Of a DNA stretch of 64,000 bases, positions 27,097 through 62,976 are shown piece after piece. The translations under genes and the position numbers were made by a program. Source of the stretch: Pachysolen tannophilus NRRL Y-2460 (lineage: Eukaryota); NCBI GenBank assembly GCA_001661245.1, contig KV454013.1, positions 145,005 to 209,004 of the forward strand. Reading direction: 5' to 3'. The notes beneath the pieces are model-generated. The model made no database searches, had not been told where the DNA came from, and saw only the letters and a program-made list of their open reading frames with translations. The stretch's first letter is position 1; each line of letters starts with the position of its first letter.

Positions 27097-29202
27097 CTAC
27101 ATTCCTCCCTTTTGGGCCCAATAATCTCTTCTTGCATTCTTGTCTATCTTTGATGCTCTGGCGGTCTCACCATCTGATGTGTCTGAGGGTTGGTCATCAG
27201 CATTTGTCTTTTTGGTAATGCCATTTTTATCATTATCATTGTCATCGTCATCACTTTCATTGTCTTCTGTTTGTATTCCCATCAAGTCATCAACTTTTGG
27301 TTTCTTGTAGCTTTGTGATTCGTCTATTATCTTGGCAAATTGCAGAGTTTCTTCATTTTTCTTTTCTGATTCAGAATCTGAAGAATAATCCGAATAATAA
27401 TGAATATCATTTTCGCTTTTCAATTTCTTTGAATTCGTTTTCCCCATTACAATCTTGGTATTACGATGCTCACTAGGTAATGGTGGCAAAGTTCCTGTTT
27501 TTTTCAAATGTAAAGTTCGTATTTCCTTGGTTTCTTCATCTTCCTCATTCACAACCAAAGCTTCATTTATAACTTGATTTCTCTCATCTTCAAATGATCT
27601 TTCTTTACCTTTATATTTGATAACACCTCCTAATATTGACTGATTTAATCTACTCTTGTATGATGCCTGATTTAATTCGTAACATCTATTTACTAACAAT
27701 TCAAAAGCACCTCCAAATGATCTCTTAATATCTCTTATGTTAAATGAACCTCTACTTATATTATTTGTCATATCATCAGGATCTTCTATAGCAAGTGAAA
27801 AAGTATTTCTCAGTAACATATCAGGATTACTTCTTTTCTGTAAATAACGTGGTTCGCCATTTCTAAAACAAATCAGTACATTATCATACCCAAAATTATA
27901 ACCATAAAGTTCAAAAAATTCAATCAATAATACACCCAAATTTTCTAAAGGATCAATGGACTTGGTTGCAATTCTTGGATGAAGTTTTAAAAAACTATAC
28001 ACCAAGCATATTATAGAATATCCTCCTAATCCTCCAACGTGTACATTGTTCAATCTTCTAACAGCTAAAAATTGTTTAACTATTAATACCAATTCCCGTA
28101 AACCTGGAGTTTCTTTTAACCATGTCCTAATATTCTTGGCTGCAGTAAGTCCGTTGGTTCTTTCAAAGGATATATCAATATGAATCCGAGATTCTGGTTC
28201 CACAAATTTGATAATGGGCACTTTTGCCTTTGCTACTGTTTCAACTTGTATCGCTAAATCATTGTTTCTCAAAAATGCAGAGAGTTGATATAAATGGGAT
28301 CGCGTATCATATTTTTCACTTGGTGAAGTTATAACCATATCAATATCAGATCCTGGAAGATATAAATCAGTCGCAAACGATCCAAATACATGTACCTCAC
28401 AATCTTCCCATAATCTAGTACATATTGCGTATCTTAATTTCCTTACTGCTTCATTTCTCAGTTCAATCTCTTCTTTGGAAGGTGAAATATATTTGATAAA
28501 GTCTTTAATTTCTAAAGTTAACCAGTCTGCAATTTCAATTTGTTTTGAGTGATCATTATTTTTAATCCAGGGGAAATCAGAATTTACCGTATTTTTGCTC
28601 TTGGCTATATGTAATGACCCATCATCATTACTCAAATAAGCATCATCTTCATCAAAATTATCATATTCAAAATTTTTGTCCTTGCTAAAATGGCCATTTT
28701 CACTATTAGATTCAATTTTTTCATCTTCATCTGATGAAAAATCAAATCCAATAAAATCTTCATTATTTGTCAACCCATTTTCTTCTGGAACTTTACTTTC
28801 TGTTATGGTATGATTAGTTTCTTTACTTTCATTCTCAACTGTTGAAATATTTTGTCTTTTCTGTGCTGTTTCTATTATTTGTGGTGATTCAATCTCTGAA
28901 TCTGAATCAAGTAGCACCATTACATCTTGTTTAGTATTACTATTAGAATCTTCATCGGTTGAACTCGCAATTGATATATAATCTGAATCATCAATATTCA
29001 GTAATGGCTTGAAAGAATTCCCACTCATCACTGAAGGAGGTGATAATATTTTATCATCTTTCTTCTTCTGCTTTTTAAGGTTGGTTCGACTAGATTTCAA
29101 TTTTGAAGAATTCGATACAGACGATAAACTTGAAGTACTTCCATTTTTACTTAATTTATTATCCGATCTCTTTCTTTTCTTATTGCTCTGTTTAAGGTCC
29201 AT
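27097..29202 (-). CDS. PAP2: TRAMP non-canonical poly(A) polymerase Trf4/Trf5
   Basis: FGSFATDLYLPGSDID nucleotidyltransferase motif, AKVPIIKF, LNNVHVGGLGG, NNISRGSFN. Confidence 0.96.
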   Translation of the reverse strand: MDLKQSNKKRKRSDNKLSKNGSTSSLSSVSNSSKLKSSRTNLKKQKKKDDKILSPPSVMSGNSFKPLLNIDDSDYISIASSTDEDSNSNTKQDVMVLLDSDSEIESPQIIETAQKRQNISTVENESKETNHTITESKVPEENGLTNNEDFIGFDFSSDEDEKIESNSENGHFSKDKNFEYDNFDEDDAYLSNDDGSLHIAKSKNTVNSDFPWIKNNDHSKQIEIADWLTLEIKDFIKYISPSKEEIELRNEAVRKLRYAICTRLWEDCEVHVFGSFATDLYLPGSDIDMVITSPSEKYDTRSHLYQLSAFLRNNDLAIQVETVAKAKVPIIKFVEPESRIHIDISFERTNGLTAAKNIRTWLKETPGLRELVLIVKQFLAVRRLNNVHVGGLGGYSIICLVYSFLKLHPRIATKSIDPLENLGVLLIEFFELYGYNFGYDNVLICFRNGEPRYLQKRSNPDMLLRNTFSLAIEDPDDMTNNISRGSFNIRDIKRSFGGAFELLVNRCYELNQASYKSRLNQSILGGVIKYKGKERSFEDERNQVINEALVVNEEDEETKEIRTLHLKKTGTLPPLPSEHRNTKIVMGKTNSKKLKSENDIHYYSDYSSDSESEKKNEETLQFAKIIDESQSYKKPKVDDLMGIQTEDNESDDDDNDNDKNGITKKTNADDQPSDTSDGETARASKIDKNARRDYWAQKGGM

Positions 29203-29517
29203 GACAAAAACTCCTATTATCCTATCCTATCTTATCTTATCTTATCTATATTGATAACAAGGCTCTACTTCACTTCACTTCACTCCACTTTACGAAGATT
29301 TTTCAAATTTTTCAAATTTTTCAATTATTTTAATTTTTTAAATTTTTTTAATTATGTTTTTTTTTCTCTCTATTTAATGAAGGTAAAACGAAATGAAGAA
29401 AAAATGAAAAATGAAAAATTTATTAATTTAAACTAAAACTATATGATTTAAATAAAAGTATTTTGTTAAATTTGAACCATTTATCAACATCTATCAAGTG
29501 TGAGATGATGGATGATT

Positions 29518-30774
29518 TTACATTAAAGATGCCAAGACTTGATCTATTGCCTTTAATAGAGCATCCGAAGCATATTCGTAATCTTCTATACAATTATAAA
29601 CTTCTGATGAAAAACGAGCATAAAGTTTACCATTATGATAATCCAATGGGACACGAGTCTTGTATTTAGAAATTGTTATATCTTCAACTGTTGATTTAAG
29701 TTTCTTGTTATAGTCATCTTGAGATTTGATGATATCAATGAATTGAGGAGTTAGAGGAACTTCAATACTAACCATACTAGTTATTAAAGTGTTATCTTTG
29801 TTTTCTAAATATGATGTCCCCCATTTTGTTGAAACTAATTTTGCCACTTTTAAAGCCAAGTTATGATTATGATTACGAATTACATCTTCACCTCCGCATA
29901 TTTCATTTCTGAAAAAAATAGCATCAATTGCAGTAACATAAGGTGCAAGACTCATAGTGCCTATATAAGCAAATCTATCAATTAATCTTTTTTCTTCCAA
30001 TTCAGGAGTTGGTAAATCATAATCATCATCAAGATAACTATGAGAAACTGGTAAAGTATGAATTTTTTTATGATGTTTTTTATCTACATATAAAAATGCA
30101 CAACCTCTAGGACATGAAAACCATTTATGTAAATTTGAACAATAAAAATCTGGTTTTAAAGTATTTAAACTGTATGGAATTAAACCAATTGAATGAGCAC
30201 CATCAACAAGACTTAATACATTATATTCATGACAAAGTTGAATAATTTTTTCAAAAGGAAGTCTAACACCTGGCATTGAAGAAACTGCATCAAATAAAGC
30301 TAAAGTAATTTCATTTTTTTCGAAAATTGATTTAAATTTTGAAATAACTTCATCATCTGTTAATGGATAATTTAATTGAATTATAACAATTTCAATTCCA
30401 ATTTTTTTAGCTAAAAATTTTACAGTATTATTACAAGCACCATAAGTAGTTGATTGTATTAAAATCTTATCATTTTTTTTAAATGGATAAGATCTTAAAA
30501 TTGTATTAACAGCTGTAGTTGCATTTGTAACAAATACAAGATTATTTGGATCAGCATCAACCACTTTTGCAACTTGCACAGCAGCATTTCGAACCAGGTT
30601 TCTACCTTCATCTTTTAAATATCGATCTGGAAATTTATAATCTTGATCAATATTTTTAATTAATGCATCTCTAACATATTTAGGAATAGCACCAAATGAA
30701 CCATTATTAACAGGCACAACGCCTTCTTCAAAGCTATAGTACTTTTCTCTAAATTCTTTCCCAAACAGAGTCAT
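29518..30774 (-). CDS. PLP-dependent class-V aminotransferase-fold lyase, Egt2/LolT-like
   Basis: NNGSFG, FVTNATTAVN, VDGAH and PLP lysine SNLHKW..CPRGCA; first ATG at 30774. Confidence 0.85.
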   Translation of the reverse strand: MTLFGKEFREKYYSFEEGVVPVNNGSFGAIPKYVRDALIKNIDQDYKFPDRYLKDEGRNLVRNAAVQVAKVVDADPNNLVFVTNATTAVNTILRSYPFKKNDKILIQSTTYGACNNTVKFLAKKIGIEIVIIQLNYPLTDDEVISKFKSIFEKNEITLALFDAVSSMPGVRLPFEKIIQLCHEYNVLSLVDGAHSIGLIPYSLNTLKPDFYCSNLHKWFSCPRGCAFLYVDKKHHKKIHTLPVSHSYLDDDYDLPTPELEEKRLIDRFAYIGTMSLAPYVTAIDAIFFRNEICGGEDVIRNHNHNLALKVAKLVSTKWGTSYLENKDNTLITSMVSIEVPLTPQFIDIIKSQDDYNKKLKSTVEDITISKYKTRVPLDYHNGKLYARFSSEVYNCIEDYEYASDALLKAIDQVLASLM

Positions 30775-31120: not shown

Positions 31121-31158
31121 GCAAGGCAAGGCAAGGCAAGGCAAGTAAGGCAAGGCAA
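31121..31158. repeat. (GCAAG)n pentanucleotide microsatellite
   Basis: Five perfect units followed by degenerate units. Confidence 0.85.
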
Positions 31159-32029: not shown

Positions 32030-32065
<36 letters not shown>

Positions 32066-33825: not shown

Positions 33826-34087
33826 NNNNNNNNNNNNNNNNNNNNNNNNNNNNNNNNNNNNNNNNNNNNNNNNNNNNNNNNNNNNNNNNNNNNNNNNNNN
33901 NNNNNNNNNNNNNNNNNNNNNNNNNNNNNNNNNNNNNNNNNNNNNNNNNNNNNNNNNNNNNNNNNNNNNNNNNNNNNNNNNNNNNNNNNNNNNNNNNNNN
34001 NNNNNNNNNNNNNNNNNNNNNNNNNNNNNNNNNNNNNNNNNNNNNNNNNNNNNNNNNNNNNNNNNNNNNNNNNNNNNNNNNNNNNNN
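33826..34087. other. Assembly gap
   Basis: Run of N next to a poly-A tract. Confidence 1.
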
Positions 34088-35498: not shown

Positions 35499-36477
35499 AT
35501 GTAAGTTAAGATATATCAAGATGAAATTAATGGAACTGATGGGGACAGAGTAAGAAGATAGAAAGAGAAAGAGAAAGAATGGTTAAATGAATTTTTTTTT
35601 CATTGTAAATCCACCTGTTTGATTCAATAATAATAAAAATAAAAATAAAATTTTTTAAAGAAAAAAAAAAAAAAAAAAAGGATTGGAATAGATTAATTTT
35701 ATTTTCAATTGTGGAAATGTTATTCATTGATGGATTGAATATAGATACTTTTTATTTTAAAAGAGTTTGATTGTTGAATCTTCTTGTTTTTTTAAGTCTC
35801 CATTAAGTGTAATTAAATTTCAAATTGGATTTGCGAATTAATTTTTTCGCTTTTCTTTTTTCTATGATGATGTACTAACAATTTTTTTTCTTTTTTCTTT
35901 TTAATATAGGGCTAACTTACGTACTCAAAAGAGACTTGCTGCCAGCGTCATGGGCGTTGGTAAGAGAAAGGTTTGGTTAGATCCAAATGAAACCACTGAA
36001 ATCTCACAAGCTAACTCCAGAGCTGCCATTAGAAAATTATACAGAAATGGTACTATTGTTAAGAAACCAGTTACTGTTCACTCAAGATCTAGAGCTAGAG
36101 ATTTAGCTGAATCTAAACGTGGTGGTCGTCATACCGGTTACGGTAAGAGAAAAGGTACTGCTGATGCAAGAATGCCTTCACAAGTTTTGTGGATGAGAAG
36201 ATTAAGAGTCTTGAGAAGACTTTTAGTCAAGTACAGAGCTGCTGGTAAAATTGATAGACATTTGTACCATAAATTGTACAAAGAAGCTAAAGGTAACACT
36301 TTTAAGCACAAGAGAGCATTAGTTGAACATGTTATTGCTGCTAAGGCTGAAGCTGCTAGAGAAAAGGCTCTTAAAGAAGAAGCTGATGCTCGTCGTCTTA
36401 AGAACAAGGCTGCTAGACAAAGAAGAAACGATAGAGTTGCCGCTGAGAGAGAAGCTGCTTTTGCAGATGAAGAATAA
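35499..36477 (+). CDS. RPL19: 60S ribosomal protein L19 (eL19); spliced, join(35499..35500,35910..36477)
   Basis: Start codon split AT|G by an intron: GTAAGT at 35501, TACTAAC at 35873-35879, TAG at 35909; gives [28 protein letters not shown]. Confidence 0.97.
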
Positions 36478-36988: not shown

Positions 36989-39661
36989 TCAAGTCCAATA
37001 ATCATACTTTTCACTTTTTAGTACCGAATCGCTACCATCTTTATCCATAAAGTAAGCATCGCTGGCAGAATTTTGAACGTCCTTATTTAAATCAATTTCG
37101 TCATCAGAATCACCTGGATCTATAAAACCTGTAGTTGTACCACAAAAATCATCAGCATTAACCCCCATGTAGTTACCCATATCTGAAGCATAAGTATTGA
37201 ATCCTGTACTACCCCCACTGCCAATAGGATTCATTACCGATGATCCGTCAATAGTATTTGGCATCACATTATGCACTGAATAAATATTGGAGGTAGATTG
37301 TGCAGAAACATTGCCACTATAATGAGTTAAGTCATCCTCTTGGCTATAAATTAATGTTTTCTGTGACATGGTAGTTGTCATTGCTGCAGGGATAGTCGTT
37401 GTAGTATATTGTTCTTGATATGATGCTGGAATACTATTTTGAAGATTAGAATTATTCTCAGTATTCTCACCTTGATAGTGAGAAAACTCCTCCTCATTAA
37501 ATCTATTTGCATCTGAATCCTTGAAAGATTGAAGACAATCGTTGTTAAAGTGTTGCTGCTGCTGTTCTAGCTCTTGCTGCCCTTGCTCTTGCTGCCCTTG
37601 CTGTTGCTGCTCTTGCTGTTGCTGCTCTTGCTGTTGCTGCTCTTGCTGTTGCTGCTGTTGCTCTCGCTGTTGCTGTTCATGATCATAATGGTCATGACCA
37701 CTGCGATGATTGCTAATATTTTTAGTTTCAACTTCCCTAGGTAAATGAATCTGTCTAAAAGTGGCAATATTGCCAGCATTATCATCCACTTTATTGAATT
37801 CCCAGAGTAAAATCGATCTAATGTCTAATTTATGTAATTGAGACAATTTTGTTAAATTTCTATCATCATAAAAAGCTTGCATTGATCCAGCTTTAAAAGG
37901 ATTATTAAATATAACTTGTTTAATAGTAATACCTCTAATTGAAACTTTTAAACTTTGTTGAACTTCGGCCTCAATTTTAGACTTGGTCGATTCTTCATCT
38001 GATTCAGTGACATCTCCATCATTTTCATACTCTTCCTTAACAGAAGCAGCTGAAACTCTACGTAATCTTTCTGCTCTCTGATATTTTAAATCAGAAGATT
38101 TTTTCAAAATACTGAAAAAACTTTCCCAAAATTTAGGAGCAAATTTTAATTCCAGATTTATATTTTTAAAATGAACATTATTTTTTGTACATTTAATAGT
38201 AAGATCATCAAATAATGATAAAACTTGTCTTCCAAAAGAATAAACTATTGTTAGACATGACCAATTATTATCAGATATAGGTAAATCTGCCAAATTAATA
38301 TTTATATTAGTTTCATAATTCCCACCAATTAAGTCATTATTCAGGAAATCTGGTAACGAAGTATTAACCAATCCATGTAAAATTGGAATTTCATAATCTT
38401 TATTAGTTTCATTTTTTTGTATTTCTTTTTCCCAATCAGAAACAATAAATAATTCTGGGAATCTCTTTGATAAATTTGCATTTTTTTTAATTCTTAAAGG
38501 TGATTCAAAAAAATTTAAAGTTTTCAATTTTGAAAAAATATGAGATTTAAATGGTTCTTCAATATTAACATATGTGAATTGAAATTTTCTTAAATCAATA
38601 GCAACTTTTGTTAAAATTTGAGTTCTATTAATATCATGATTTAAATGAACAGGTGAATCTTCATGAATATCAAAACGTGATGAATTACTTGGTGAATGAT
38701 CATAATTTATTTTCAATTTTTTATTCTTATCGCTACTAATTAACGAAACTGGTGTAACTGGTGTTTCAGTTAAAGGTGATTGTACAGAATCAATATTACC
38801 ACCACCAATAGATTTTTGGAAAAAAATTTTACCAAAAATTTCATTAAATTTTTGAGGAGCATTTGGATCTAAAGGACCTTTTGTTATTAATTCAATTAAA
38901 TCTGGATCTTTATTAAATTTTTTAATAACTTGAATATGAGAAGATACTTGTTTTCTTGCTCTTAATTTACCAGTCTTATAAAAAATAAAATCAGAAATCA
39001 ATTCATTTCTACCACATGATTTACCGCTAAGTTTTATCTTAGTTAATCCCTTTTTCGGAATAACACTTAACGCCTCAGCAAATGCCAGTTCAATATCTTC
39101 TGACCAAATTGAACTATTCTCTTCTTCATTTTCGATATTATGGGTATTATTATTATTAATAATGTTTGGAGAGAATGAATTTTCCTTATCATCAGAAAGT
39201 GATGATGACGGTGTAGTAAATGAATGAAATGAAGGAGTAATTGGTGATAAGTTTAATTTTCTAAGTTTCGAAGGTCTTCTAATACTTGAAGGCACATCAA
39301 AATGATGTCTCTTATTCAATCCATTACCTGATAACAGTTGTAAACTTTGTACACCTGAAGGATGTTGTAATAAATGGAAATTCTTTGATTTATTCAAACT
39401 ATTACCTTGTAATTTAACCGGAGTTGTGAATTCATTTGAATTTTGTTTTAATTTTTTAGTTTCATAAACTTGATAAACTTCTCTTCCAGTAGTATTATCA
39501 ATGGAAATATCCACAATCATTGGAAGTCTACCACTTGACGATGATAAATTTTCATTTTTCACTGAAGAAATTGGGGGAGTCATTGCCATGGGAGAAGGTA
39601 ATAAACTTCCTTCTCCACTGATGCTACCGCTGTTACTGCTGGCTGATGGAGTAGATGTCAT
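36989..39661 (-). CDS. TEC1: TEA/ATTS-domain transcription factor (Tec1-like)
   Basis: IWSEDIExAFAEAL...GRNELISDFIFYKTGKLRARKQVSSHIQV TEA domain; first ATG at 39661; orthology to TEC1 itself not certain. Confidence 0.8.
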   Translation of the reverse strand: MTSTPSASSNSGSISGEGSLLPSPMAMTPPISSVKNENLSSSSGRLPMIVDISIDNTTGREVYQVYETKKLKQNSNEFTTPVKLQGNSLNKSKNFHLLQHPSGVQSLQLLSGNGLNKRHHFDVPSSIRRPSKLRKLNLSPITPSFHSFTTPSSSLSDDKENSFSPNIINNNNTHNIENEEENSSIWSEDIELAFAEALSVIPKKGLTKIKLSGKSCGRNELISDFIFYKTGKLRARKQVSSHIQVIKKFNKDPDLIELITKGPLDPNAPQKFNEIFGKIFFQKSIGGGNIDSVQSPLTETPVTPVSLISSDKNKKLKINYDHSPSNSSRFDIHEDSPVHLNHDINRTQILTKVAIDLRKFQFTYVNIEEPFKSHIFSKLKTLNFFESPLRIKKNANLSKRFPELFIVSDWEKEIQKNETNKDYEIPILHGLVNTSLPDFLNNDLIGGNYETNININLADLPISDNNWSCLTIVYSFGRQVLSLFDDLTIKCTKNNVHFKNINLELKFAPKFWESFFSILKKSSDLKYQRAERLRRVSAASVKEEYENDGDVTESDEESTKSKIEAEVQQSLKVSIRGITIKQVIFNNPFKAGSMQAFYDDRNLTKLSQLHKLDIRSILLWEFNKVDDNAGNIATFRQIHLPREVETKNISNHRSGHDHYDHEQQQREQQQQQQEQQQQEQQQQEQQQQGQQEQGQQELEQQQQHFNNDCLQSFKDSDANRFNEEEFSHYQGENTENNSNLQNSIPASYQEQYTTTTIPAAMTTTMSQKTLIYSQEDDLTHYSGNVSAQSTSNIYSVHNVMPNTIDGSSVMNPIGSGGSTGFNTYASDMGNYMGVNADDFCGTTTGFIDPGDSDDEIDLNKDVQNSASDAYFMDKDGSDSVLKSEKYDYWT
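37552..37677 (-). repeat. 15-nt Gln/Glu coding minisatellite in the TEA gene
   Basis: Tandem CAGCAACAGCAAGAG-type units encoding QQQQE / QQGQE. Confidence 0.85.
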
Positions 39662-40829: not shown

Positions 40830-43593
40830 CTAGTTTTCTTCGTCGTCATCGGACGCTAAATACTTGGCATAATCGTCGGCACTTGCAAATGTAGGTAAGT
40901 CTTTAAGCTTAGATTTTTTAGATTTTTTAGATTTCTTAACTTTTTGGTTATCATTTGGAATCGAATGCCTTGATCTTTTCTTACTAGTGGCGGCGTCACT
41001 AGTGCTTTCGATTTCCTCGGAAGATAAGCCATCCCACGCGTCATTCTCGTCAAGTTCAAGTTCCTCGCTATTGTATTCGTCGTCTGAATCGCCTTTGAAT
41101 AAGTTCAGTTCATCGCCGTCTGAAATTTCTTCCTCGGAAACTTCTTCTTCAAGAGCTTCTTCTTCTTCTTCTTCTTCTTCTTCTTCTTCTTCTTCATCCG
41201 AATCGCCAAATTCATCTTCGACTGCTCTTATGCTTCCTTCATCAAGTCCATTTTCATCTTCGTCGTCAGTCAAACCGTCCATCGAGAAATCATCAAGATC
41301 ACTAAGTTCATTATCCAACTCATCCAAATCAGAATCTGAACCGTCATTTTCAACATCAGGATTGGATTTAACCAAAGCACTCCAAACTTCATCGTCATCT
41401 AAATCACTGCCCTTCTCTTCTTCATCCGCTTCATCTGCATCAGCAGCTGCTTTATCATATTTCGACCTAGCAATCTTATCCTGCTTTGTAGAAAAATATT
41501 GGTAAAAAAATAATTCATCTGGATTAATTTCATCAGCTTTTTGCGAAAGCCAGTCTCGCGTATTAACTGGAATCTCCTTATTACCAGAAACTGAAGTGGA
41601 AGTTGCTCTGACTAATAATGAACCAGTTTGAGTACCTCCTAAAGGTTGCATAATAGAAGAACCTCTAGTAGTTACCTTTTGTTTAGCATTTTTATAAACA
41701 AATTTATCCAAGAAATGTGATAATGTATATAAACCCAAATCAGGCTTATTAACTTCTTCGACTTCATTTAAAAAACTTTCGGCATAAAGAGAAACAGTTG
41801 GATGATAATATGTTAAAAATTGAAGAATTTCCCATAATGATGATTTATCCGCTTTTGAAAACCTTGGATCACGCAGTCTTGGATCATATTGCTCAAGTAT
41901 ACTATCTTTCTTAATATTAACATCTGTAGTTGAAATATCTTCCTTATCACTAGGAACATCTTTAAAATGCTCTTCTTCATCATCATCCTCGTATAATGCA
42001 TCCACAGGTGTATTTAAAAACATATTTTTAATGCTTGGAACATGCTTCTCTAAATTAATTAATAAATAAAGCATCCCACTAATTGAACCAACGTTTAACC
42101 AGTGAAGACAAATTTGACAAATTCTCTTCACAAATGAATAAATCCTAGTAACGTTAGTATCCTTTTTCAATGCTTTAAATAACAAGTTGAGATATATTCC
42201 TTGTTTTGAAGAACCAGCCAATCTTTGATCTAACAAAGACTCATATAAAGTTCTATAAAATCTGTCAGAATTCAAATTTTGACTTTCTATGACATGATAT
42301 ACCAAGACTAACGCTTGAATAGATGTATTAAGATTAGTTGAATGAGTTATCTTGAACAATGTATCCAAATGCTTGGTGAATACTTCACTTGGTAAATTGC
42401 TAAAAGGAAATGCACGGTTCAACCCGGTCAAAATTGCGGAAAACAATTTTGAATTTTTCTCTTCAACAACTTCCGCTTCAGTTTTATCTTGATTCTTTGA
42501 AGATTTTCCACCTTTTTTACCTTTCTTAAAATTTCTCTTACCTCTAAATTTATTATGTACTGATTTCTCTGTTGTTGTTGAATCATTGTTATGAACATCA
42601 CTTTCAACCAAAATTTTTTCAAATAGAGTGAAATATGTCTTAATTAACCCATTAGCTAAATCTTGTTCTCTTCTAGTTAAAATTGTCTGGTTCAATGCTA
42701 AGATAGAGTAGTATATTGCATGGTAGTCATTATTTTTCTTGAAAACAACATCAGTTATGGCATCAACAACTATTTTTTTCATCAGTGGGTGCAGTTGCTC
42801 TAGTTGCAAAAGCAAATATGAAGTTTTAGCTGAAACTTTGTTGTCTGTATCACCTAATTTATTAACACCCAATCTTAAAAGATTAGCCTCTTGCTCAGGT
42901 TTTGCTTTCAATAAATCAAATAAATGGTTAACAACATTCATTTTGACATGTACAATTGGATCATGAGCCAAGATTTCCAAGATTCCAATAAATTTGAAAT
43001 ATAATTTTTTCATATAATCTTCGAAATAAAACAAAGCTAATTCTTTCTTTCCTAAAGACATTGATAATTGTTGTTTATTAAAATATCTCAATTTTCTATC
43101 TGGTAATACACCATTTGTGAATAAATCTTTAAGAGCATTAATACTTTGTAAAGCAGCAGTTCTAGATTTTTTCTCACACATTCCTAATAAATTGTCCAAT
43201 GCTTTAATGTTATGTAATGGTGCTTCTTGGATCAATAAAGTTAAAGCTGAAATTTTATCGTTCAAAGTACCACTTGTTAAAATTTGTGATAAGAAAGTTT
43301 TCTGTGAAGAACTTTTAGAAAATTCTTCGTAATAGTTTTTATTTTCTAAATCTATAACTTCTTTTGCCTTCAGGTATAATGTTTCAATTTGTTGTGGTGT
43401 TAATTCTTCTTCATCTACTAAAATTTTTTCAACATTAAACCAATCTGTTCTTGCAGGCACAATCAACCTATCACTAATAACTGAAGCAACATTGGTAATC
43501 TTGTTGTCTTTTTTAGCTTTGGATAAATCTACTTCTTTTTGAATGATCTCCGATTCTGATTCTGATTCTGACTTAGATGCAGTTGAGCTAGAG

Positions 43594-43624
<31 letters not shown>

Positions 43625-44150
43625 CTTCTTCTTCTTCTTCTTCTGCCTCTTCTTCTGCCTCTTGATCCTCCTCCTCAAGTTCTACATCTTCATCCGGAAT
43701 ATCTTCCAACTTAAACTTATTCAATCCGATATCTCTCATAAACTTGTTTAAATCATTTGCTAAATTCTTATCAGATTTCTCCTTTAAATCTTCAATATCA
43801 TCAAATTCTTGTTCACTTTGTTCACCTTCTGAAACACCTTGAATTAAATCTAAATCCTCTTCTGTCGCACCCAACGCCAAGGCTTCACGGCGCAATACAT
43901 CAGCTTCAGATTCTTCTTCTTGAGACACTATTTCCAGTTTCAGAGATTCAACCTTCTTCTCACCTTCTTCACCCTTATTTCCTTTTAAATTTTCATCATC
44001 ATTTTTCTTCAGCGTAGGTGTCTGCTTCTGCTTCTGCTTCTGTTTTTGTTTCTGTTTCTGCTTCTGCGTCACCTCCTTTGTACTAACCCCATGTAATTTA
44101 TTTATAACCTTATCCTTCAACGAGGATAAATTCAAAGAAAAAGAATCCAT
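40830..44150 (-). CDS. MAK21: Mak21/Noc1 60S biogenesis factor (CBF domain)
   Basis: SGTLNDKISALTLL, KPEQEANLLRLGVNKLGD, ILTGLNRAFPF, LSHFLDKFVYKN and LPTFASADDY motifs. Confidence 0.97.
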
Positions 44151-52075: not shown

Positions 52076-53074
52076 TTACTTAAAATTTTTTTTCAAAGTT
52101 TCATATATATAAAATACAATAGCATTTGAAGGAATTGCTCTTAATAAAGTTATACCTAATCCACTATAAAAACTTCTCACTCCATTTTTTGAATAAATTT
52201 TTTTTATAACTCCTGTATAATCAACTTTATCTCCATGTACAAAATTTTGCTGAGTTTGTACAGTTGATTTCACAGTATCTACTGGGAAAAATGAAGCATT
52301 ATAAGCTACACCTGCAATAGCTCCTGATACTAATAGTTCCAAGCTTGAATTTTCAGATCTATTATTTAATTTTTGGAAAGTCATTAGTGAATACTCATAT
52401 GATCCAAACCAAAAAGCAGTTGCACCACATTCTCTAATTAAAGTTGATGTTTGACCTTTCCAAAATCCTAATAGACCTTGCTCTTTATATATATGTTTAA
52501 TCAATTTGAGAATTGACATTGTTGAATTTGTATTAATTGCATTTTTTTGAAGTAAATGATTAACTTGCATTTGACATTTAACAAGTTCAATTGGTGTTAA
52601 TATGAAACTTGTTATAATACCACTTATCCCTCCTGCTATAACCTTATCATAAAACAGTAATGGCTTATTTAAATCACCACGAATGTTTTTATGGATGAAA
52701 ACTTGAGCCAGATCATATGAAAAAAATAAACAAGCATACTCAAGAGAAGTACCAAACATTGGAGAAGATAAACCTTTATAAAACCCATTTAAAAAACCTT
52801 CATTCTTATACGTCTCTTTGATACAATGCCATGATGATTTAAATAATGGCCTAGCTAAATTTTGTGAATATTGTAACCTAACTTTTACAGTATCAAATGG
52901 ATACTCTACAATTTTCCCCAATGCTCCAGAAATTGATCCAAACAGTATTTCCTTATAACTATTCTTGAACAGATGATCAACTCCAATTTTTTCTCCATTT
53001 TTTTCACTCCCCATCACCCCACTCTGCTGCTCTCGCACTTGGTGCCCTATTATAGCAACATCTTGCTCAGACAT
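52076..53074 (-). CDS. ORT1: Mitochondrial ornithine carrier
   Basis: GKIVEYPFDTVKVRLQ, LTPIELVKCQMQV, GQTSTLIRE and LRAIPSNA motifs. Confidence 0.88.
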   Translation of the reverse strand: MSEQDVAIIGHQVREQQSGVMGSEKNGEKIGVDHLFKNSYKEILFGSISGALGKIVEYPFDTVKVRLQYSQNLARPLFKSSWHCIKETYKNEGFLNGFYKGLSSPMFGTSLEYACLFFSYDLAQVFIHKNIRGDLNKPLLFYDKVIAGGISGIITSFILTPIELVKCQMQVNHLLQKNAINTNSTMSILKLIKHIYKEQGLLGFWKGQTSTLIRECGATAFWFGSYEYSLMTFQKLNNRSENSSLELLVSGAIAGVAYNASFFPVDTVKSTVQTQQNFVHGDKVDYTGVIKKIYSKNGVRSFYSGLGITLLRAIPSNAIVFYIYETLKKNFK

Positions 53075-54161: not shown

Positions 54162-54494
54162 ATGAAATACTTAGCTGCTTACTTATTATTATCCAGTAAC
54201 GGTGTTGAGCCAACTGCTGAAAAAATTTCATCTTTATTATCAAGTGTTGGTATTGATGTTGATTCCGAAAGAGTTTCCAAATTATTAGCTGATTTAGCTG
54301 GTAAATCGGTTTCAGAATTAATTGCAGAAGGTAACACCAAATTGGCTTCTGTTCCAACTGGTGGTGCTGCTGTTGCTTCCAAGAGTGGTGCTGCTGCCGG
54401 TGGTGCTTCTGAAGAAGCTGCTCTGGAAGAAGAAAAAGAAGAGCTGGCTAAAGAGGAATCAGATGATGATATGGGTTTTGGTTTATTTGATTAG
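54162..54494 (+). CDS. RPP2: 60S acidic ribosomal protein P2
   Basis: [11 protein letters not shown]-terminus and [14 protein letters not shown]-terminus. Confidence 0.98.
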
Positions 54495-56252: not shown

Positions 56253-56624
56253 NNNNNNNNNNNNNNNNNNNNNNNNNNNNNNNNNNNNNNNNNNNNNNNN
56301 NNNNNNNNNNNNNNNNNNNNNNNNNNNNNNNNNNNNNNNNNNNNNNNNNNNNNNNNNNNNNNNNNNNNNNNNNNNNNNNNNNNNNNNNNNNNNNNNNNNN
56401 NNNNNNNNNNNNNNNNNNNNNNNNNNNNNNNNNNNNNNNNNNNNNNNNNNNNNNNNNNNNNNNNNNNNNNNNNNNNNNNNNNNNNNNNNNNNNNNNNNNN
56501 NNNNNNNNNNNNNNNNNNNNNNNNNNNNNNNNNNNNNNNNNNNNNNNNNNNNNNNNNNNNNNNNNNNNNNNNNNNNNNNNNNNNNNNNNNNNNNNNNNNN
56601 NNNNNNNNNNNNNNNNNNNNNNNN
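56253..56624. other. Assembly gap
   Basis: Run of N after a long poly-T tract. Confidence 1.
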
Positions 56625-57431: not shown

Positions 57432-60400
57432 ATGGTTGATAAATTCAATGAAATTTTTGATTCTGTGGATTTGTCCAAGACAGAAAAGAATGATGCTAAT
57501 AATATAGCTTTGGATGTTAAGAATGATTTGCAAAGGGCAAGAGCATTAAGGAAAACAATGACTTCAAAACAACCAAGTACTAATAGTTCAAATTTTTTTT
57601 TCAGATCAACACTTGGATTAAATTCAACTGATACACAACTGAATAATTTAAGTTCAAATATTTCTAATAATTTCTTGACATCTCCTTTAAAATTTAGAGT
57701 TCAAAATTTTGCAAAATTATCATCTTCAGAACTTGCTACAACTTATATTGATGGTATTATAAAAAAAGAAAGTGATACACCAGCTTTAAGTGAAGTTTTC
57801 ACAAAATATCCAGTTGATAATTATAATTTTAAACCAGATACAGGGTTGGGAAATTTTACAAGATTTGAAAAATTTTCAGTTTTAAATATTCCTGATAAAA
57901 TATTATTAGAATATAGTACTACAAAATGTATCACTTCAATGGGTATGTTTCCGGAATTAAAGAAATGTTGGTTGACTGTAGATAATAAGTTAATATTATG
58001 GGATTATGAAGAAGTTAATGATGCAAAATATTCCACTATAGATGAATTTAAACACACCATTTTAACAGTTAAATTAGTTAAACCTAAAAAAGGTGTATTT
58101 ATTGATGATGTCAATTATTTATTATTGATATCAACACCAATGGACATTTATATATTAGCTGTTGAATATGATAAAATTACTAGAAAATTGGAAATTTATA
58201 ACACTGCTATGTCTGTTTCTACTAAAGGTTTAGTTGTGAATAAATTCATAACATTTAATAAAACAAATGATATTTTCTTTTCAGGTGTGGGTGATAATAT
58301 TAATGTTTGGAAATTAAACTATACCAATAAACAAGCTTGGTTCTCAAATAGGTGTTCTAAAGAATGTCTCACACGTAGTGGTATGTCCACTGTCTTACCT
58401 GATTCAATTACAAATCTTGGCATTTTTGGTAGTACCAATGATTCTACTGAATTTTCTAAACATGTTACACACGAATATTTGATTCAATTAGAAATAGATC
58501 AATTAAGAGGAATTCTTTATACTTTGTCATCAAAATCAGTTATTAGAGCTTATAAAATAGATATTGATAAGAATCGAAATGTTTCATTACCTTCAGAAAT
58601 TACAAAGACAAAAATTTCATTGCTAAAAGATTTAAGTACAACGAATTTAAACATTCGATCACCTTTGTTGAAAGTTACAGACTTTCATATTTCCAAAATT
58701 TTTCCCGTAACCAAAGAGAAGAACTGTACTTTATATCTTGTAGCTGTATTGAGCAATGGTGTTAGAATATATATTAACGGTACTTGTTATTCTGGTTATG
58801 GTTATGGTTATGACTCTAAAAAATCAACTCTTGGACGATTAAGTGCTAGTTTTATAAAATTTCCACCCCCAGATTTTGACTTTTATCTGAAATCAGAAGA
58901 GAAAAGAAAATTAGAGGAAAAGCAACAAATGGATCAGCCATTATATGAATTCGGAAATATATTTATGAAAGATCAAAAATATCAACAACAAAAGCATTTT
59001 CATTCTCCTTTGGATTTGAAAAATGCTCAAGAAAATTCAAATTTATTGAAGAACTTGAAAACCGCTCGTGTTATATCCCGAAATATATATTTTGGTGTTT
59101 TGAAGTCTAGTGAACCTTCTCTGAATGCTACTAAGAAGGATGGTGACACAGAACAAAAGGGTTCCACATCGGGTGATAGATTATTTGTTTCTACTCCTGA
59201 TTATAATCTTTTGAAAAAAGATAAATCTTATGTTGAAGATTTTGAATTTTTAGATACTTCTGGAGTAATTCATGACATTATTCCATTGACAGTTGATAAT
59301 TCTGAATCTACATCAAAATTTTTAAAAGAGCCATTAACTGTTGCAGTATTGACTAATTCTGGTATTCATATTTATAGATATCGTACTTCAGATTTAATAT
59401 TAGAAGATTCTTTGGATGAACTGACTTTTAAAGAATTTTCTTCAAAATATGGTCCGGAAGAGGCATGTTCATCTGCATTACATTTGGCTTGTAAATATGG
59501 GAAATCAGATTCTTTTAAGATTAAGGCCACTCAATTTTTCATTGAAGGTGGACACAATGGAAGTATTAATAAGAACTTGACTCTTAAATTGGGGAATGTT
59601 GAACTTAGTGATAGATTTTTTGGATTTATCATGATGATTGGAAGATTATTTAAAAATGTTTGGGATACAGAAGTTTTCAAAGTTAATCCAGAAGTTGTTA
59701 AGTTTGAAAAAGATGGTTTCATCAATCAAAAATATCTTTTGAAGAAAATGAATAAGTCAGAAGAACAACCAATCATGGGTTTAACTTTAAGTAAGCAAGA
59801 TCTTGAATATTTGTTAAGTTCGATATTAATTGTATTACAATTTTTTAAAAAAAATTCAAAAATTATTCCTGGTTTATCACAACCAAATTTTACAATTTTT
59901 GATATTAATAATGATAAAACATTAGAAATTGTTTCACAAGCTGAAAATATATCTTTTAAATCTGTTTTAAAATTATTAGAATCAATGACTGAAGGGTTAT
60001 CATTTTTGATGATATTATTAGAGCAACTGGATTCTAAAGAAAAATTTGCTGATATTTTTAAATATTTATCAATTCAATCACAAATTGATTTAAGTTGTTT
60101 AATGATTCAAGATTTTTTAGCTCCTAGACAAGATTATATTAAAATTTTAATTAAAGAAATTTTATCAGCAATTATAAATAAAAATATTGCTAAAGGTTTA
60201 TCAGTTGAATATATTACAACTAGTTTACAAGAAAGATGTGGTACCTTTTGTTCTAGTGATGATGTTATTATGTATAAAGCAATTGAAAATTTGAAAAGAG
60301 CTAAAGAATTATATACAAGAGATTATGAAGAATCTAGAAAATATTTGGTAACTGCTCTGCAATTATTTGAAAAATGTAATGATAAAAATTTAAATATGGA

Positions 60401-61166
60401 AACAATTGCTCATAGTATTGATGTTATGAATAGTTTAAATTTTTATCAAGGTTCAATTAAATTATTATTAAATTTAGCTAATAAGGATGAAAATGCTAAT
60501 AAGATAAGTTTAAAAGTTTATCAACAACAAGAATTAGTTCAAGTTAATTTACAACCTAATGTGAATGGGAATGGAAATGGGAAAGATATTAAAAATTTTA
60601 ATCTTAATTTAATAGATCCTGAAGAAGTACAAATTTTAGATAAAAAAATGGCTTATTATGAATTAGTATTTAAAATTTTAACTGAAATGGATGAAAAAGC
60701 TAAAAAAAGTCTTGATTCTTTACAAAATGTTCCAAGTAATTTTCAAGTTGTTACTGAATTTACACGTTTACGTGAATTGTTATATGAAATATGTTTTAAT
60801 CATGAAGATCAAATTTTCCATTATGAATTATATAAATTTTTTATAAAGCAAGGTATTAGTGAAAGATTATTAGATGTCAATTCAGAATATATATTGACCT
60901 TCTTAGAAGACTACGCTTCCCACGATATTAACATAGGATACTTATTATGTGACTATCACTTGAGAAGATCAAATTATTTACAAGCAGCAAACATCTTGGT
61001 CAGTATTGTCATTGCATTTGAAAATTTGGATAATGAAATAAAAATTCAATTATTATGCAAGGCAAAAGTCTACTTGAACGCAGGAGGCCCCAACAGCGCA
61101 AGCGATAAACTCTCGGCAGCAATCGAAGAGTTGATCAGAAGCTTGGTATCAGATCCCAATCCATAA
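57432..61166 (+). CDS. NUP170: Nucleoporin Nup157/Nup170 (Nup155 family)
   Basis: MGMFPELKKCWLTVDNKLILW, VKLVKPKKGVF, YGPEEACSSAL, LQERCGTFCSSDD and FHYELY motifs. Confidence 0.92.
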   Translation: MVDKFNEIFDSVDLSKTEKNDANNIALDVKNDLQRARALRKTMTSKQPSTNSSNFFFRSTLGLNSTDTQLNNLSSNISNNFLTSPLKFRVQNFAKLSSSELATTYIDGIIKKESDTPALSEVFTKYPVDNYNFKPDTGLGNFTRFEKFSVLNIPDKILLEYSTTKCITSMGMFPELKKCWLTVDNKLILWDYEEVNDAKYSTIDEFKHTILTVKLVKPKKGVFIDDVNYLLLISTPMDIYILAVEYDKITRKLEIYNTAMSVSTKGLVVNKFITFNKTNDIFFSGVGDNINVWKLNYTNKQAWFSNRCSKECLTRSGMSTVLPDSITNLGIFGSTNDSTEFSKHVTHEYLIQLEIDQLRGILYTLSSKSVIRAYKIDIDKNRNVSLPSEITKTKISLLKDLSTTNLNIRSPLLKVTDFHISKIFPVTKEKNCTLYLVAVLSNGVRIYINGTCYSGYGYGYDSKKSTLGRLSASFIKFPPPDFDFYLKSEEKRKLEEKQQMDQPLYEFGNIFMKDQKYQQQKHFHSPLDLKNAQENSNLLKNLKTARVISRNIYFGVLKSSEPSLNATKKDGDTEQKGSTSGDRLFVSTPDYNLLKKDKSYVEDFEFLDTSGVIHDIIPLTVDNSESTSKFLKEPLTVAVLTNSGIHIYRYRTSDLILEDSLDELTFKEFSSKYGPEEACSSALHLACKYGKSDSFKIKATQFFIEGGHNGSINKNLTLKLGNVELSDRFFGFIMMIGRLFKNVWDTEVFKVNPEVVKFEKDGFINQKYLLKKMNKSEEQPIMGLTLSKQDLEYLLSSILIVLQFFKKNSKIIPGLSQPNFTIFDINNDKTLEIVSQAENISFKSVLKLLESMTEGLSFLMILLEQLDSKEKFADIFKYLSIQSQIDLSCLMIQDFLAPRQDYIKILIKEILSAIINKNIAKGLSVEYITTSLQERCGTFCSSDDVIMYKAIENLKRAKELYTRDYEESRKYLVTALQLFEKCNDKNLNMETIAHSIDVMNSLNFYQGSIKLLLNLANKDENANKISLKVYQQQELVQVNLQPNVNGNGNGKDIKNFNLNLIDPEEVQILDKKMAYYELVFKILTEMDEKAKKSLDSLQNVPSNFQVVTEFTRLRELLYEICFNHEDQIFHYELYKFFIKQGISERLLDVNSEYILTFLEDYASHDINIGYLLCDYHLRRSNYLQAANILVSIVIAFENLDNEIKIQLLCKAKVYLNAGGPNSASDKLSAAIEELIRSLVSDPNP

Positions 61167-61654
61167 TCATGATACTCAAAACTTTTAGCTCCATCTTCTT
61201 CCATTAATTATATAGAAAAATTAATAAGATATATAATAAAATTATTATTAGTATTATTATTATTATAAGAAACAGATAAGATTTGATTAAAGTAAAAAAA
61301 AAAAAAAAAAAACGACTGCGAAATTTTTATTTTGAAATTTGGTAGCCGCGCACACTACTTTAGTTTTTTTTTCTAATGTTTTTCTTTTCTTTTCTTTGTT
61401 TTTGAACTAAGAAACCAATTGAGCTTTATTTATTTATTTCTTTGCTTTTAAATTTGGTTGTTCTTGTTCTTGTTCTTTGTTTTGTTGTTGTTGTTATTGT
61501 TATTGTTTATTGTTTTCTTAGAATTGTGTTTTAATTTTTTCTTTGTTATTTTTTTTTTTATTTTTTTCGTTTTTTTTTCTTTCCCTTTTCATTGTTTTAT
61601 CATTCATTCATTTAAATATTACGTTGAATGTGTTGAAAAATTGACTTTCTCACC

Positions 61655-61829
61655 ATGAATCAAGATCTAGCTCAGCTGAATAGTCATGGGCATGCTTCGA
61701 GTCAGATTTTCCAAATAGGTGCTTCGTCGAATAGTGGGAGCTCGAATAATAATGTTACTCAAAATCATGCGTCAAGTAATGGTAAAAATACTAATAACAA
61801 TAGTAACAATAGTAATAGTATGAATAATG

Positions 61830-61871
<42 letters not shown>

Positions 61872-62976
61872 GTAATAATAATAATGGTAGTAATAATAAT
61901 GAAGATAATAATAATACTAATACAAATAATAATAATAATAATAATAATAGCAGCCATTCAGGGGGTTCTGTACCGAATGACAATTCCAATTCAAATAACC
62001 ACATAACACCGTCAACAACAATGAGTACCGATACTTCTAATAGTAATTCCTCGGTAACACATCAATTGGTGACTAATGATCCGAGTTTTGATTTACAAAA
62101 GGCAACATTAGATGCAGCAATATATTATTCTCAAAATAAAAAAAAACTTCTTTAGAAAAAGTTGCAAAATTATTTGGTACAACTGTTAAACGTGTGAGAA
62201 ATAGGGTTAAAAAATTGAATGAAAATCCAGAATTTAATCCTACAAATTTTATTGTCACTGCTCCATCAGTACCAAGACCACCACCACACAAATCTTTACA
62301 AAGCCCGAATAAAATTAAAAAGGCAAACTCTTTAGGAGCAACAGGAACAGGATCTGGATCTGGAACTGGATCTGGAGGAGTAGGAACAGGAACTAGTGGT
62401 AATAAGAATTCCTCACATCTGCACCATCATCACCTTCAACGACTGCTGCAACTGCAAGCACAGCAGCAACTGCTGCTGCTGCTGCTGCTGCAAAATGCCC
62501 ACTACCAATTACAAGAGGCCTTGTCGAAACAACAGCAACAGGTGGCCCAATCTGTAGCGACTAATACCCTCGTTGTAGATCCAAATATACATCAGGCAAA
62601 CACTACCGATCCACAATTGATTCAATTGAATACAATGGCACAACAACTGCCACCACAACCCCAGCCGCAACTGCTGCCGCTTTTGCATTACCAGCAATCA
62701 CCACAACATAGATCTCAAAGACATTCACTTTCTCAACATTTGAATCCATATCAATCACAACAGATTGAACAACAGGTTCTGCTGCTGCAACTGCTGCTGC
62801 AACAACAACTGCAACAACAACTGCAACCTCATCACCACAACTTACCTCATCATGGAACTATCATTGACTTTAACAATTTAGAAAACTTAAAACTGCTTGT
62901 CAATAATGATAAATTAACAATCGAAGAAATTAAATACGTTATCAATTATTTGATAAATAAGACTTTATGCCAGTAG
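61655..62976 (+). CDS. Asn/Gln/Ala-rich putative transcription regulator with a helix-turn-helix; one gene split by a -1 frameshift at the A9 run 62138-62146 (about 440 aa if joined)
   Basis: ORF1 ...TLDAAIYYSQNKK continues in the -1 frame as TSLEKVAKLFGTTVKRVRNRVKKL (Psq/HTH-like); poly-N, poly-H and Q/A tracts. Confidence 0.7.
61789..61948 (+). repeat. (AAT)n poly-Asn coding repeat
   Basis: Dense AAT/AAC triplet runs. Confidence 0.9.

What the first reader, a model, noticed from the sequence alone, without database searches (positions are those of the whole stretch)
27874..62830. Alternative nuclear genetic code: CUG is read as alanine
Seen: in-frame CTG codons sit where I recall homologues having Ala. 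Examples are Mak21 LEQ[CTG]HP (42792-42794; S. cerevisiae LEQAHP), Trf4 YDNV[CTG]I (27874-27876; YDxVA motif), Ort1 EI[CTG]FGS (52943-52945), Rpp2 EEAA[CTG]EEEKEE[CTG]AKEE (54423, 54444), the TEA domain DIE[CTG]AF (39086-39088) and Gpi14 FFI[CTG]N (22141-22143), plus (CTG)7 inside poly-Gln. Established: CUG=Ala is NCBI translation table 26, described in Pachysolen tannophilus and its CUG-Ala clade relatives; it differs from CUG=Ser in Candida. Inference: this genome belongs to that clade and every CTG 'L' in the ORF track should be A. The code itself is already known. It would be new only if this organism lies outside that clade.
Basis: partly seen in the sequence, partly recalled or inferred. 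Interest (0 to 1): 0.9.

Follow-up and report, generated by a model that had tools for sequence, protein, structure and literature searches.

The report
Known CUG-to-alanine yeast genetic code
This stretch of budding-yeast DNA does use the rare code in which CUG means alanine instead of leucine, but that code is already described and the public protein records for these genes already apply it.

Summary
The window is AT-rich (about 27% GC) nuclear DNA of a budding yeast. It has 26 ORFs of at least 150 aa holding 70 in-frame CTG codons.

CTG does not behave as a leucine codon. In 21 alignable CTG columns from four deep alignments, homologues carry Leu at a mean of 0.07, against 0.59 for the other five Leu codons. 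None of 5000 resamples of Leu-codon or Ser-codon columns reaches the observed scores.

Alanine is the best of the 20 residues, but only moderately: it wins 68% of bootstraps, and Ala, Thr and Ser tie on the variable columns.

The question is settled by public records. Three public proteins from this same locus equal the window's translation except for Ala at all 14 CTG codons. A Mak21 tree places the organism as sister to the CUG-Leu Pichiales, which is the published position of the CUG-Ala clade (PMC5951914).

The tRNA(CAG) could not be examined: the window holds no tRNA gene and no whole genome is held.

Verdict: real, correctly interpreted, already known (NCBI table 26).

The parts
40830..44150 (-). 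MAK21 orthologue with 8 CTG codons. Aa 453 (42792-42794) and aa 456 (42783-42785) fall on Ala-dominated columns. Aa 759 (41874-41876) falls on a column that is Lys in 118 of 120 homologues. Aa 260 (43371-43373) falls on a Glu/Asp/Gln column.
27097..29202 (-). TRF4-type poly(A) polymerase with 5 CTG codons. Against S. cerevisiae Trf4, aa 443 (27874-27876) aligns with Ala, and aa 248 and aa 464 align with Ile.
52076..53074 (-). Public protein P0196 is identical over aa 21-332 except for Ala at all 4.
54162..54494 (+). Acidic ribosomal protein P2 with CTG at aa 88 (54423-54425) and aa 95 (54444-54446), both in the Ala/Glu-rich hinge just before the conserved C-terminal tail.
36989..39661 (-). TEA/ATTS-domain transcription factor with 4 CTG codons. 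Aa 192 (39086-39088) lies inside the TEA domain and aligns with Gln in solved human TEADs.
22054..23289 (-). GPI mannosyltransferase 1 (PIG-M/Gpi14) with 4 CTG codons at aa 96, 110, 117 and 383 (aa 383 = 22141-22143). Public protein P0346 is identical over its 402 aa except for Ala at all 4.
57432..61166 (+). Nup170/Nup157-type nucleoporin with 6 CTG codons. Public protein P0165 (1244 aa) is identical except for Ala at all 6. Contigs of runs X1, X4 and X5 match this stretch with no differing letter.
62140..62976 (+). Gln-rich open frame of 278 codons. By my reading of the DNA it holds about 20 in-frame CTG codons, including (CTG)7 at 62470-62490. Under CUG=Ala these become Gln/Ala-rich tracts.

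Best explanation
The window comes from a budding yeast of the CUG-Ala clade (order Alaninales: Pachysolen, Nakazawaea, Peterozyma), whose nuclear genes use NCBI translation table 26. In that published system a tRNA-Ala gene acquired the anticodon CAG. It kept the alanine identity marks (G3:U70, A73, short variable arm), and alanyl-tRNA synthetase does not read the anticodon, so CUG is translated as alanine. The old CUG-Leu codons were lost. Today's CUG codons arose afresh, mostly by single-base changes at sites that tolerate a small residue. That would explain why CTG codons here lie mainly in variable, hydrophilic segments and only sometimes on conserved Ala positions. What was shown here: CTG is not a Leu-type or Ser-type codon, Ala is the best fit, the public annotation reads it as Ala, and the phylogenetic position fits. 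What is inferred from the literature and not seen here: the tRNA mechanism and the peptide proof. The account of how the present CUG codons arose is my own inference.
For: 1. Codon census. There are 70 CTG among 13,336 codons in 26 ORFs, and 21 of 26 ORFs hold at least one. This resembles the 16,824 CUG in 5288 proteins, 80% of genes, reported for Pachysolen tannophilus (PMC4937558, passage). 2. Codetta-like test. The four alignments hold 120 Mak21, 30 Nup170, 128 Ort1 and 117 Gpi14 homologues, with the organism's own public proteins excluded. Of 22 CTG codons, 21 columns were usable. Scores are Ala -1.1, Thr -8.7, Ser -12.0, Val -12.6 and Leu -28.2. As a control on three alignments, 55 of 60 codons decode to their standard residue. 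The 5 misses are CTG plus four codons with 1-4 columns. 3. Mean Leu frequency in CTG columns is 0.07, against 0.59 for TTA/TTG/CTT/CTC/CTA. No Leu resample (0 of 5000) reaches the observed Ala-minus-Leu score of +27.0, and no Ser resample (0 of 5000) reaches the Ala-minus-Ser score of +10.8. 4. Only 0.02% of random 21-column sets reach the observed Ala score. Ala wins 3408 of 5000 bootstraps and Leu wins none. 5. CTG makes up 24.8% of the CTN box, whereas G-ending codons make up 4.1-12.5% of the seven other four-fold boxes. CTG is therefore not used like a synonym of CTN. 6. Public proteins of this locus (sources NCBI, UniRef, nr; contig of 1,751,653 bases) differ from the standard translation only by Ala at every CTG: 6 of 6 in P0165, 4 of 4 in P0196, 4 of 4 in P0346. 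7. In the Mak21 tree of 42 rows the query is sister to five Pichiales rows (SH-aLRT 98). It lies outside the Serinales clade (19 rows, support 100) and the Saccharomycetales plus Phaffomycetales group. 8. Literature. For P. tannophilus, 97.2% of 907 fully supported CUG positions are read as Ala in peptides, and the tRNA(CAG) carries G3:U70 and A73 (PMC4937558, sections 4 and 10 and passages). The Ala clade and its split from the Leu2 clade are described in PMC5951914 (passages).
Against: Window-only support for Ala over other small or polar residues is moderate. - Thr wins 737, Gln 252, Ser 242 and Val 177 of the 5000 bootstraps. - On the 17 variable columns Ala (-0.6), Thr (-0.8) and Ser (-2.4) are not separable. 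Without the two most Ala-rich columns, Ala (-5.6) and Thr (-5.7) tie. - CTG columns are unlike ordinary Ala-codon columns. Mean Ala frequency is 0.12 against 0.44 for GCN. Only 4 of 21 are conserved (top residue at least 50%) against 61% of GCN columns. The observed Ala-minus-Leu score (27.0) lies below the minimum of the GCN resamples (30.7). - Of the 4 conserved CTG columns, two are Ala, one is Lys (118 of 120) and one is Glu (75 of 119). - Some CTG codons sit on hydrophobic columns: Nup170 976 (V12 I8 of 30), Gpi14 96 (L32 I31 V26 of 116) and Trf4 248 and 464 (Ile in S. cerevisiae). - No tRNA gene lies in the window and no whole genome is held, so the decoding tRNA was not seen. - The public annotation follows the depositor's choice of table, so it is not independent proof of decoding. 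- The tree contains no named Ala-clade member, so membership rests on position alone.
Confidence: 0.92

Rival explanations
1. The standard code applies (CUG = Leu). The reader picked a few CTG codons that happen to align with Ala, and the public proteins were translated with the wrong table.
For: A few CTG codons fall on hydrophobic columns: Nup170 aa 70 (L7 of 24), Ort1 aa 44 (L29 of 108), Gpi14 aa 96 (L32 of 116), Nup170 aa 976 (V/I/L).
Against: Mean Leu frequency in CTG columns is 0.07 against 0.59 for the other Leu codons. Leu ranks 12th of 20 residues (-28.2). None of 5000 Leu-column resamples comes near the observed score (their maximum is -26.4 against +27.0 observed), and Leu wins 0 of 5000 bootstraps. 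CTG's share of the CTN box is 2 to 6 times the G-ending share in other four-fold boxes. CTG flanks are more hydrophilic than Leu flanks (-1.00 against -0.53, p = 1.4e-4).
Confidence: 0.01
2. CUG = Ser, as in the Candida/Debaryomyces clade (table 12) or the Ascoidea/Saccharomycopsis clade.
For: Some CTG columns are Ser-dominated: Gpi14 383 (S50 of 116), Ort1 140 (S42 of 127), Nup170 866 (S11 of 25), Mak21 47 and 70. Ser wins 242 of 5000 bootstraps, and on the variable columns alone Ser (-2.4) is close to Ala (-0.6).
Against: Ser scores 10.8 nats below Ala overall, and 0 of 5000 resamples of Ser-codon columns reach that difference (their maximum is 4.0). The two conserved small-residue columns are Ala with almost no Ser (S 3 of 120 and S 1 of 120). 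The query lies outside the well-supported Serinales clade. The public proteins carry Ala, not Ser.
Confidence: 0.03
3. CUG is read ambiguously, or as another small or polar residue such as Thr, so a plain Ala translation is only approximately right.
For: CTG codons avoid conserved sites (4 of 21 columns conserved against 57% of all columns). Thr ties with Ala once the two most Ala-rich columns are removed. An almost invariant Lys (118 of 120) and a Glu/Asp column are occupied by CTG. CTG flanks are as hydrophilic as those of Glu and Gln. Stochastic CUG decoding exists in Ascoidea asiatica (PMC6041473; title and start of abstract seen in the listing).
Against: For P. tannophilus, 97.2% of 907 fully supported CUG positions gave Ala in peptides (PMC4937558, passage). 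Ala remains the single best residue here. The preference for variable sites is what the published model of newly arisen CUG codons predicts (PMC4937558, section 10).
Confidence: 0.03

Closest known systems
CUG-Ala nuclear code of Pachysolen tannophilus and the Ala clade (Nakazawaea, Peterozyma); NCBI translation table 26; order Alaninales
   Same: CTG is not used as Leu and Ala is the best-fitting residue. CUG density and the share of genes affected are similar: 2.7 per ORF and 81% of ORFs here, against 3.2 per protein and 80% of genes published. The organism is sister to the CUG-Leu Pichiales. Public proteins of this locus are translated with Ala at CTG. NCBI taxonomy places Pachysolen in Alaninales.
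   Different: No difference was found. Not verified here: the tRNA-Ala(CAG) gene, peptide evidence, and a tree containing a named Ala-clade species. No tool gave the species name. That it is Pachysolen itself or a close relative is my inference.
CUG-Ser1 code of Candida, Debaryomyces and relatives (table 12, order Serinales)
   Same: The same codon has been moved away from leucine in a budding yeast, and CTG codons sit at non-Leu, mostly polar positions.
   Different: Ser fits worse than Ala: 10.8 nats lower, and 0 of 5000 Ser resamples reach that gap. The query lies outside the Serinales clade. The public proteins carry Ala.
CUG-Ser2 clade (Ascoidea, Saccharomycopsis), including stochastic Ser/Leu decoding in Ascoidea asiatica
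   Same: It is an independent CUG reassignment in budding yeasts.
   Different: The residue is Ser (or Ser/Leu) and the lineage is different. The query groups with Pichiales, not with the Phaffomycetales/Saccharomycetales side of the tree. No Ascoidea or Saccharomycopsis row was in that tree.

Membership tests
CUG-Ala code (NCBI table 26, Alaninales) | CUG codons do not occupy leucine positions of homologues | tested here: met
   Mean Leu frequency is 0.07 in 21 CTG columns against 0.59 in 328 columns of the other Leu codons. No Leu resample (0 of 5000) reaches the observed score.
CUG-Ala code (NCBI table 26, Alaninales) | CUG codons fit alanine better than any other residue | tested here: met
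   Ala is best of 20 residues (-1.1; Thr -8.7, Ser -12.0). It wins 68% of bootstraps, and only 0.02% of random column sets reach its score. On the variable columns alone Ala, Thr and Ser are not separable. The feature is met, with moderate strength.
CUG-Ala code (NCBI table 26, Alaninales) | A tRNA with anticodon CAG bearing alanine identity elements (G3:U70, A73, short variable arm), and no tRNA-Leu(CAG) | not testable with these tools
   ARAGORN (with and without introns) and Rfam found no tRNA gene in the window. No whole genome is held.
CUG-Ala code (NCBI table 26, Alaninales) | Peptides with alanine at CUG positions | not testable with these tools
   No proteomics data are reachable here. 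The published result for P. tannophilus is 97.2% Ala (PMC4937558).
CUG-Ala code (NCBI table 26, Alaninales) | Phylogenetic position as sister of the CUG-Leu Pichiales (Leu2 clade), outside Serinales | tested here: met
   In the Mak21 tree the query joins Kuraishia, Ambrosiozyma, Pichia and two Ogataea with SH-aLRT 98. This matches PMC5951914. It is a single gene, built with the quick method, and no named Ala-clade row was available.
CUG-Ala code (NCBI table 26, Alaninales) | Public records of the genome are translated with Ala at CTG | tested here: met
   Ala stands at 14 of 14 CTG positions in P0165, P0196 and P0346, and the rest of each sequence is identical.
CUG-Ser code (table 12 or the Ser2 clade) | CUG codons occupy serine positions of homologues | tested here: not met
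   Ser scores -12.0 against Ala -1.1. No resample of Ser-codon columns (0 of 5000) reaches the observed Ala-minus-Ser difference.
Standard nuclear code (table 1) | CTG behaves as a synonym of the other Leu codons | tested here: not met
   The G-ending share of the CTN box is 0.248, against 0.041-0.125 in the other four-fold boxes.

The most novel reading that the evidence does not exclude
CUG in this yeast may not be a plain alanine codon. Its codons avoid conserved alanine sites, cluster in hydrophilic variable segments, and in one case replace a lysine kept in 118 of 120 yeasts. This leaves room for partly ambiguous or context-dependent decoding. Alternatively, the strain could be an undescribed lineage beside the known Ala clade.
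Probability: 0.04. Interest if true: 0.6.

Novelty: already known. Interest (0 to 1): 0.08.

Why it matters
The practical value is annotation. Every CTG in this window's ORFs should be read as Ala: the 72 CTG codons in the 27 ORFs examined, plus about 20 in the Gln-rich frame. Otherwise 81% of the proteins carry wrong residues. Scientifically it adds nothing. The CUG-Ala code has been described with tRNA and peptide evidence since 2016 (PMC4937558), its clade was delimited in 2018 (PMC5951914), and the public proteins of this locus already use it. One small by-product is a local illustration that reassigned CUG codons sit at variable, hydrophilic sites rather than at typical Ala sites.

Tried and rejected
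- Whole-genome route to the tRNA(CAG): no genome is held for this window.
- tRNA and RNA genes in the window: ARAGORN found none, with or without introns, and Rfam gave no match at gathering scores.
- Earlier notes of this scan: none on this genome. A word search returned only an unrelated phage tRNA note.
- Naming the organism from the protein database: the window's own proteins are listed without names, and I did not pursue this.
- Sequencing runs: five runs from two studies hold 93-98% of the sampled words of the Mak21 stretch, and no RNA holder is listed.
- Laying contigs of X1, X4 and X5 on 57432-63000: they confirmed the Nup170 stretch letter for letter. No contig covers 62268-63000, and none bridges the A-run at about 62136-62146. 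The suspected frameshift and the (CTG)7 length could therefore not be checked.
- Pfam on the two frames of the Gln-rich gene gave nothing.
- The 2012 Pachysolen genome announcement is not held, so I make no claim about its GC content or scaffold sizes.
- Hydropathy of flanking residues separates CTG from Leu, but equally from Ala and Ser, so it does not identify the residue.
- Considered and rejected: CUG=Leu, CUG=Ser, and decoding as Glu/Gln/Lys (log-likelihoods -15 to -20).

Full report
WHAT THE WINDOW IS. The 64-kb window is very AT-rich: GC is 0.20-0.32 per 4-kb bin. It has five N runs. It holds 26 ORFs of at least 150 aa with typical budding-yeast housekeeping content. These include ribosomal proteins L3 and L19, a CK2-like kinase, Sld7, an RNase PH exosome subunit, PIG-M/Gpi14, TFIIF-alpha, a Trf4-type poly(A) polymerase, a TEA-domain factor, Mak21, three mitochondrial carriers and a Nup170-type nucleoporin. 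A 110-aa acidic ribosomal protein P2 lies at 54162-54494. No tRNA or other Rfam RNA gene lies in the window, and no whole genome is held.

CHECK OF THE OBSERVATION. All quoted coordinates are correct and all quoted CTG triplets are in frame. The 26 ORFs hold 70 CTG codons among 13,336 codons, and 21 of the 26 ORFs hold at least one. (CTG)7 at 62470-62490 is in frame on the + strand within a Gln-rich open frame, 62140-62976. By my reading of the DNA that frame holds about 20 CTG codons.

The recalled statement that homologues have Ala at these places holds for 3 of the 7 single codons:
- Mak21 aa 453: A in 71 of 120 homologues and in S. cerevisiae.
- Trf4 aa 443: A in S. cerevisiae Trf4.
- P2 aa 88: A in yeast and human P2.

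It fails for the other 4:
- Ort1 aa 44: L29 V25 I16 A15.
- Gpi14 aa 383: S50 of 116.
- TEA aa 192: Q in 5 of 5 solved TEAD chains.
- P2 aa 95: E, K, V.

SYSTEMATIC TEST.
- Mak21: 120 homologues.
- Nup170: 30 homologues.
- Ort1: 128 of 149 representatives, after dropping the 21 with 420 aa or more.
- Gpi14: 117 of 119, after dropping the 2 with 480 aa or more.

The organism's own public proteins (P0165, P0196, P0346) were left out. For each codon of the query I summed log-odds of each residue over the homologue columns, in the manner of Codetta. On three alignments 55 of 60 codons decode to their standard residue. The misses are CTG and four rare codons with 1-4 columns.

For CTG, 21 of 22 columns were usable. 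The scores are Ala -1.1, Thr -8.7, Ser -12.0, Val -12.6 and Leu -28.2. Homologues carry Leu at a mean of 0.07 in CTG columns, against 0.59 for the other five Leu codons. In 5000 resamples of 21 columns, Leu-codon columns never reach the observed Ala-minus-Leu score: their maximum is -26.4 against +27.0 observed. Ser-codon columns never reach the observed Ala-minus-Ser score: their maximum is 4.0 against +10.8 observed. Random sets of 21 columns reach the observed Ala score in only 0.02% of draws. Leucine is therefore excluded, and alanine compatibility is far above chance.

LIMITS OF THE WINDOW-ONLY EVIDENCE.
- Ala wins 3408 of 5000 bootstraps. Thr wins 737, Gln 252, Ser 242 and Val 177.
- Only 4 of 21 CTG columns are conserved (top residue at least 50%), against 61% of GCN columns and 57% of all columns.
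- Those four conserved columns are Ala, Ala, Lys (118 of 120) and Glu (75 of 119).
- On the 17 variable columns Ala, Thr and Ser are indistinguishable (-0.6, -0.8, -2.4).
- CTG columns carry far less Ala (0.12) than ordinary GCN columns (0.44).
- CTG flanks are more hydrophilic (mean -1.00) than those of Leu, Ala or Ser codons (about -0.5, p about 1e-4). They are closest to those of Glu and Gln.

Two side observations fit a codon cut loose from the Leu box. CTG is 24.8% of CTN, while G-ending codons are 4-12.5% of the other four-fold boxes. Many CTG codons also lie in acidic or Gln-rich low-complexity stretches.

WHAT SETTLES IT. The protein databases hold proteins encoded by this very locus. 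Their sources are NCBI, UniRef and nr, they come from a contig of 1,751,653 bases, and their names are hidden. Each equals the standard translation of the window except at CTG codons, which are all Ala: 6 of 6 in the nucleoporin, 4 of 4 in the carrier and 4 of 4 in Gpi14. The public record is thus already translated with CUG=Ala, which is NCBI table 26. This reflects the depositor's choice of table rather than independent proof of decoding, but it does show that nothing here is new.

PHYLOGENETIC POSITION. The Mak21 tree has 42 rows: the query, 28 named yeasts and 13 unnamed hits. It used IQ-TREE in quick mode with LG+G4. The query is sister to Kuraishia, Ambrosiozyma, Pichia and two Ogataea (SH-aLRT 98). 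It lies outside the 19-row Serinales clade (support 100) and outside the Saccharomycetales/Phaffomycetales group. Krassowski et al. (PMC5951914, passages) describe exactly this position. The Ala clade (Pachysolen, Nakazawaea, Peterozyma) splits deeply from the Leu2 clade, which contains Kuraishia, Komagataella, Ogataea and Pichia. The best non-self hits for the nucleoporin are also Pichiales, at 41-45% identity. NCBI taxonomy files Pachysolen under Alaninales. No named Ala-clade sequence was available for the tree.

MECHANISM (literature, not seen here). Muhlhausen et al. 2016 (PMC4937558; abstract, sections 4 and 10, and passages) make three relevant points:
- 97.2% of 907 fully supported CUG positions are Ala in peptides.
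- CUG codons were re-established independently after tRNA loss. They share no positions with the Ser-clade species, and they share only poorly conserved positions with species that use the standard code.

The figures in that paper (16,824 CUG in 5288 proteins, 80% of genes affected) match the density seen here (2.7 per ORF, 81% of ORFs). My inference, not tested: CTG is one base change away from Gln (CAG), Val (GTG), Met (ATG), Pro (CCG), Arg (CGG) and Leu codons, but two changes away from any GCN codon. New CUG-Ala codons would therefore arise mostly as replacements at tolerant sites. That would explain the variable, polar columns, the Gln-rich contexts and the occasional loss of a conserved Lys or Glu.

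SEQUENCE RELIABILITY. Contigs of three public runs from two studies (X1, X4, X5) match 57432-61217 without a single differing letter. The six nucleoporin CTG codons are therefore not assembly errors, although one of these studies may be the source of the assembly.

VERDICT. The phenomenon is already known and already applied in the public annotation of this locus. The tRNA and peptide tests remain undone for lack of data. Interest is low.

Noticed in passing
window 61655-62976, junction at about 62136-62146: ORF 61655-62155 ends just after an A-run (aataaaaaaaaactt). A second frame, open from 62140 to 62976, continues with sequence that reads like the same protein. This is either a real frameshift or a homopolymer-length error in the assembly. 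A contig of run X4 stops at 62135 and none bridges the run.
   Followed up: partly
window 41874-41876 (Mak21 aa 759): A CTG codon occupies a column that is Lys in 118 of 120 yeast Mak21 homologues and Gln in the other 2 (query motif YDPR-CTG-RDPRF). If CUG is read as Ala, a near-invariant Lys has been replaced in this lineage.
   Followed up: partly
all ORFs of the window: CTG codons sit at unusually variable and hydrophilic places. Only 4 of 21 alignable columns are conserved, against 57% of all columns. Mean flank hydropathy is -1.00, against about -0.5 for Leu, Ala and Ser codons. CTG makes up 24.8% of the CTN box, although G-ending codons are otherwise 4-12.5% of four-fold boxes.
   Followed up: yes
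window 20827; 33826-34087; 49159-49917; 53426-53876; 56253-56624: One single N and four N runs of 262-759 bases. In the translations several are flanked by long A or T homopolymers, so they look like scaffold gaps at low-complexity DNA. Three spurious ORFs of 150 aa or more run through them.
   Followed up: no
window 21004-23289 (- strand): The RNase PH exosome subunit gene lies directly downstream of Gpi14. Two Candida database proteins (P0367, 675 aa; P0420, 596 aa) carry both PIG-M and RNase_PH domains. The adjacency is therefore conserved in Serinales, or those gene models wrongly fuse two neighbouring genes.
   Followed up: no
window 35950-36477: The L19 ORF matches the Pfam L19e N-terminal model only from profile position 13 onward. 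The first codons probably lie in a short upstream exon, that is, there is a 5' intron.
   Followed up: no
window 510-8015 and 35950-39661: Neighbouring genes (Sld7, a CK2-like kinase and L3; the TEA factor next to L19) recall adjacencies I remember from S. cerevisiae. This is recalled, not tested. Identity to the S. cerevisiae Trf4 catalytic core and the Mak21 core is visibly high in the alignments.
   Followed up: no
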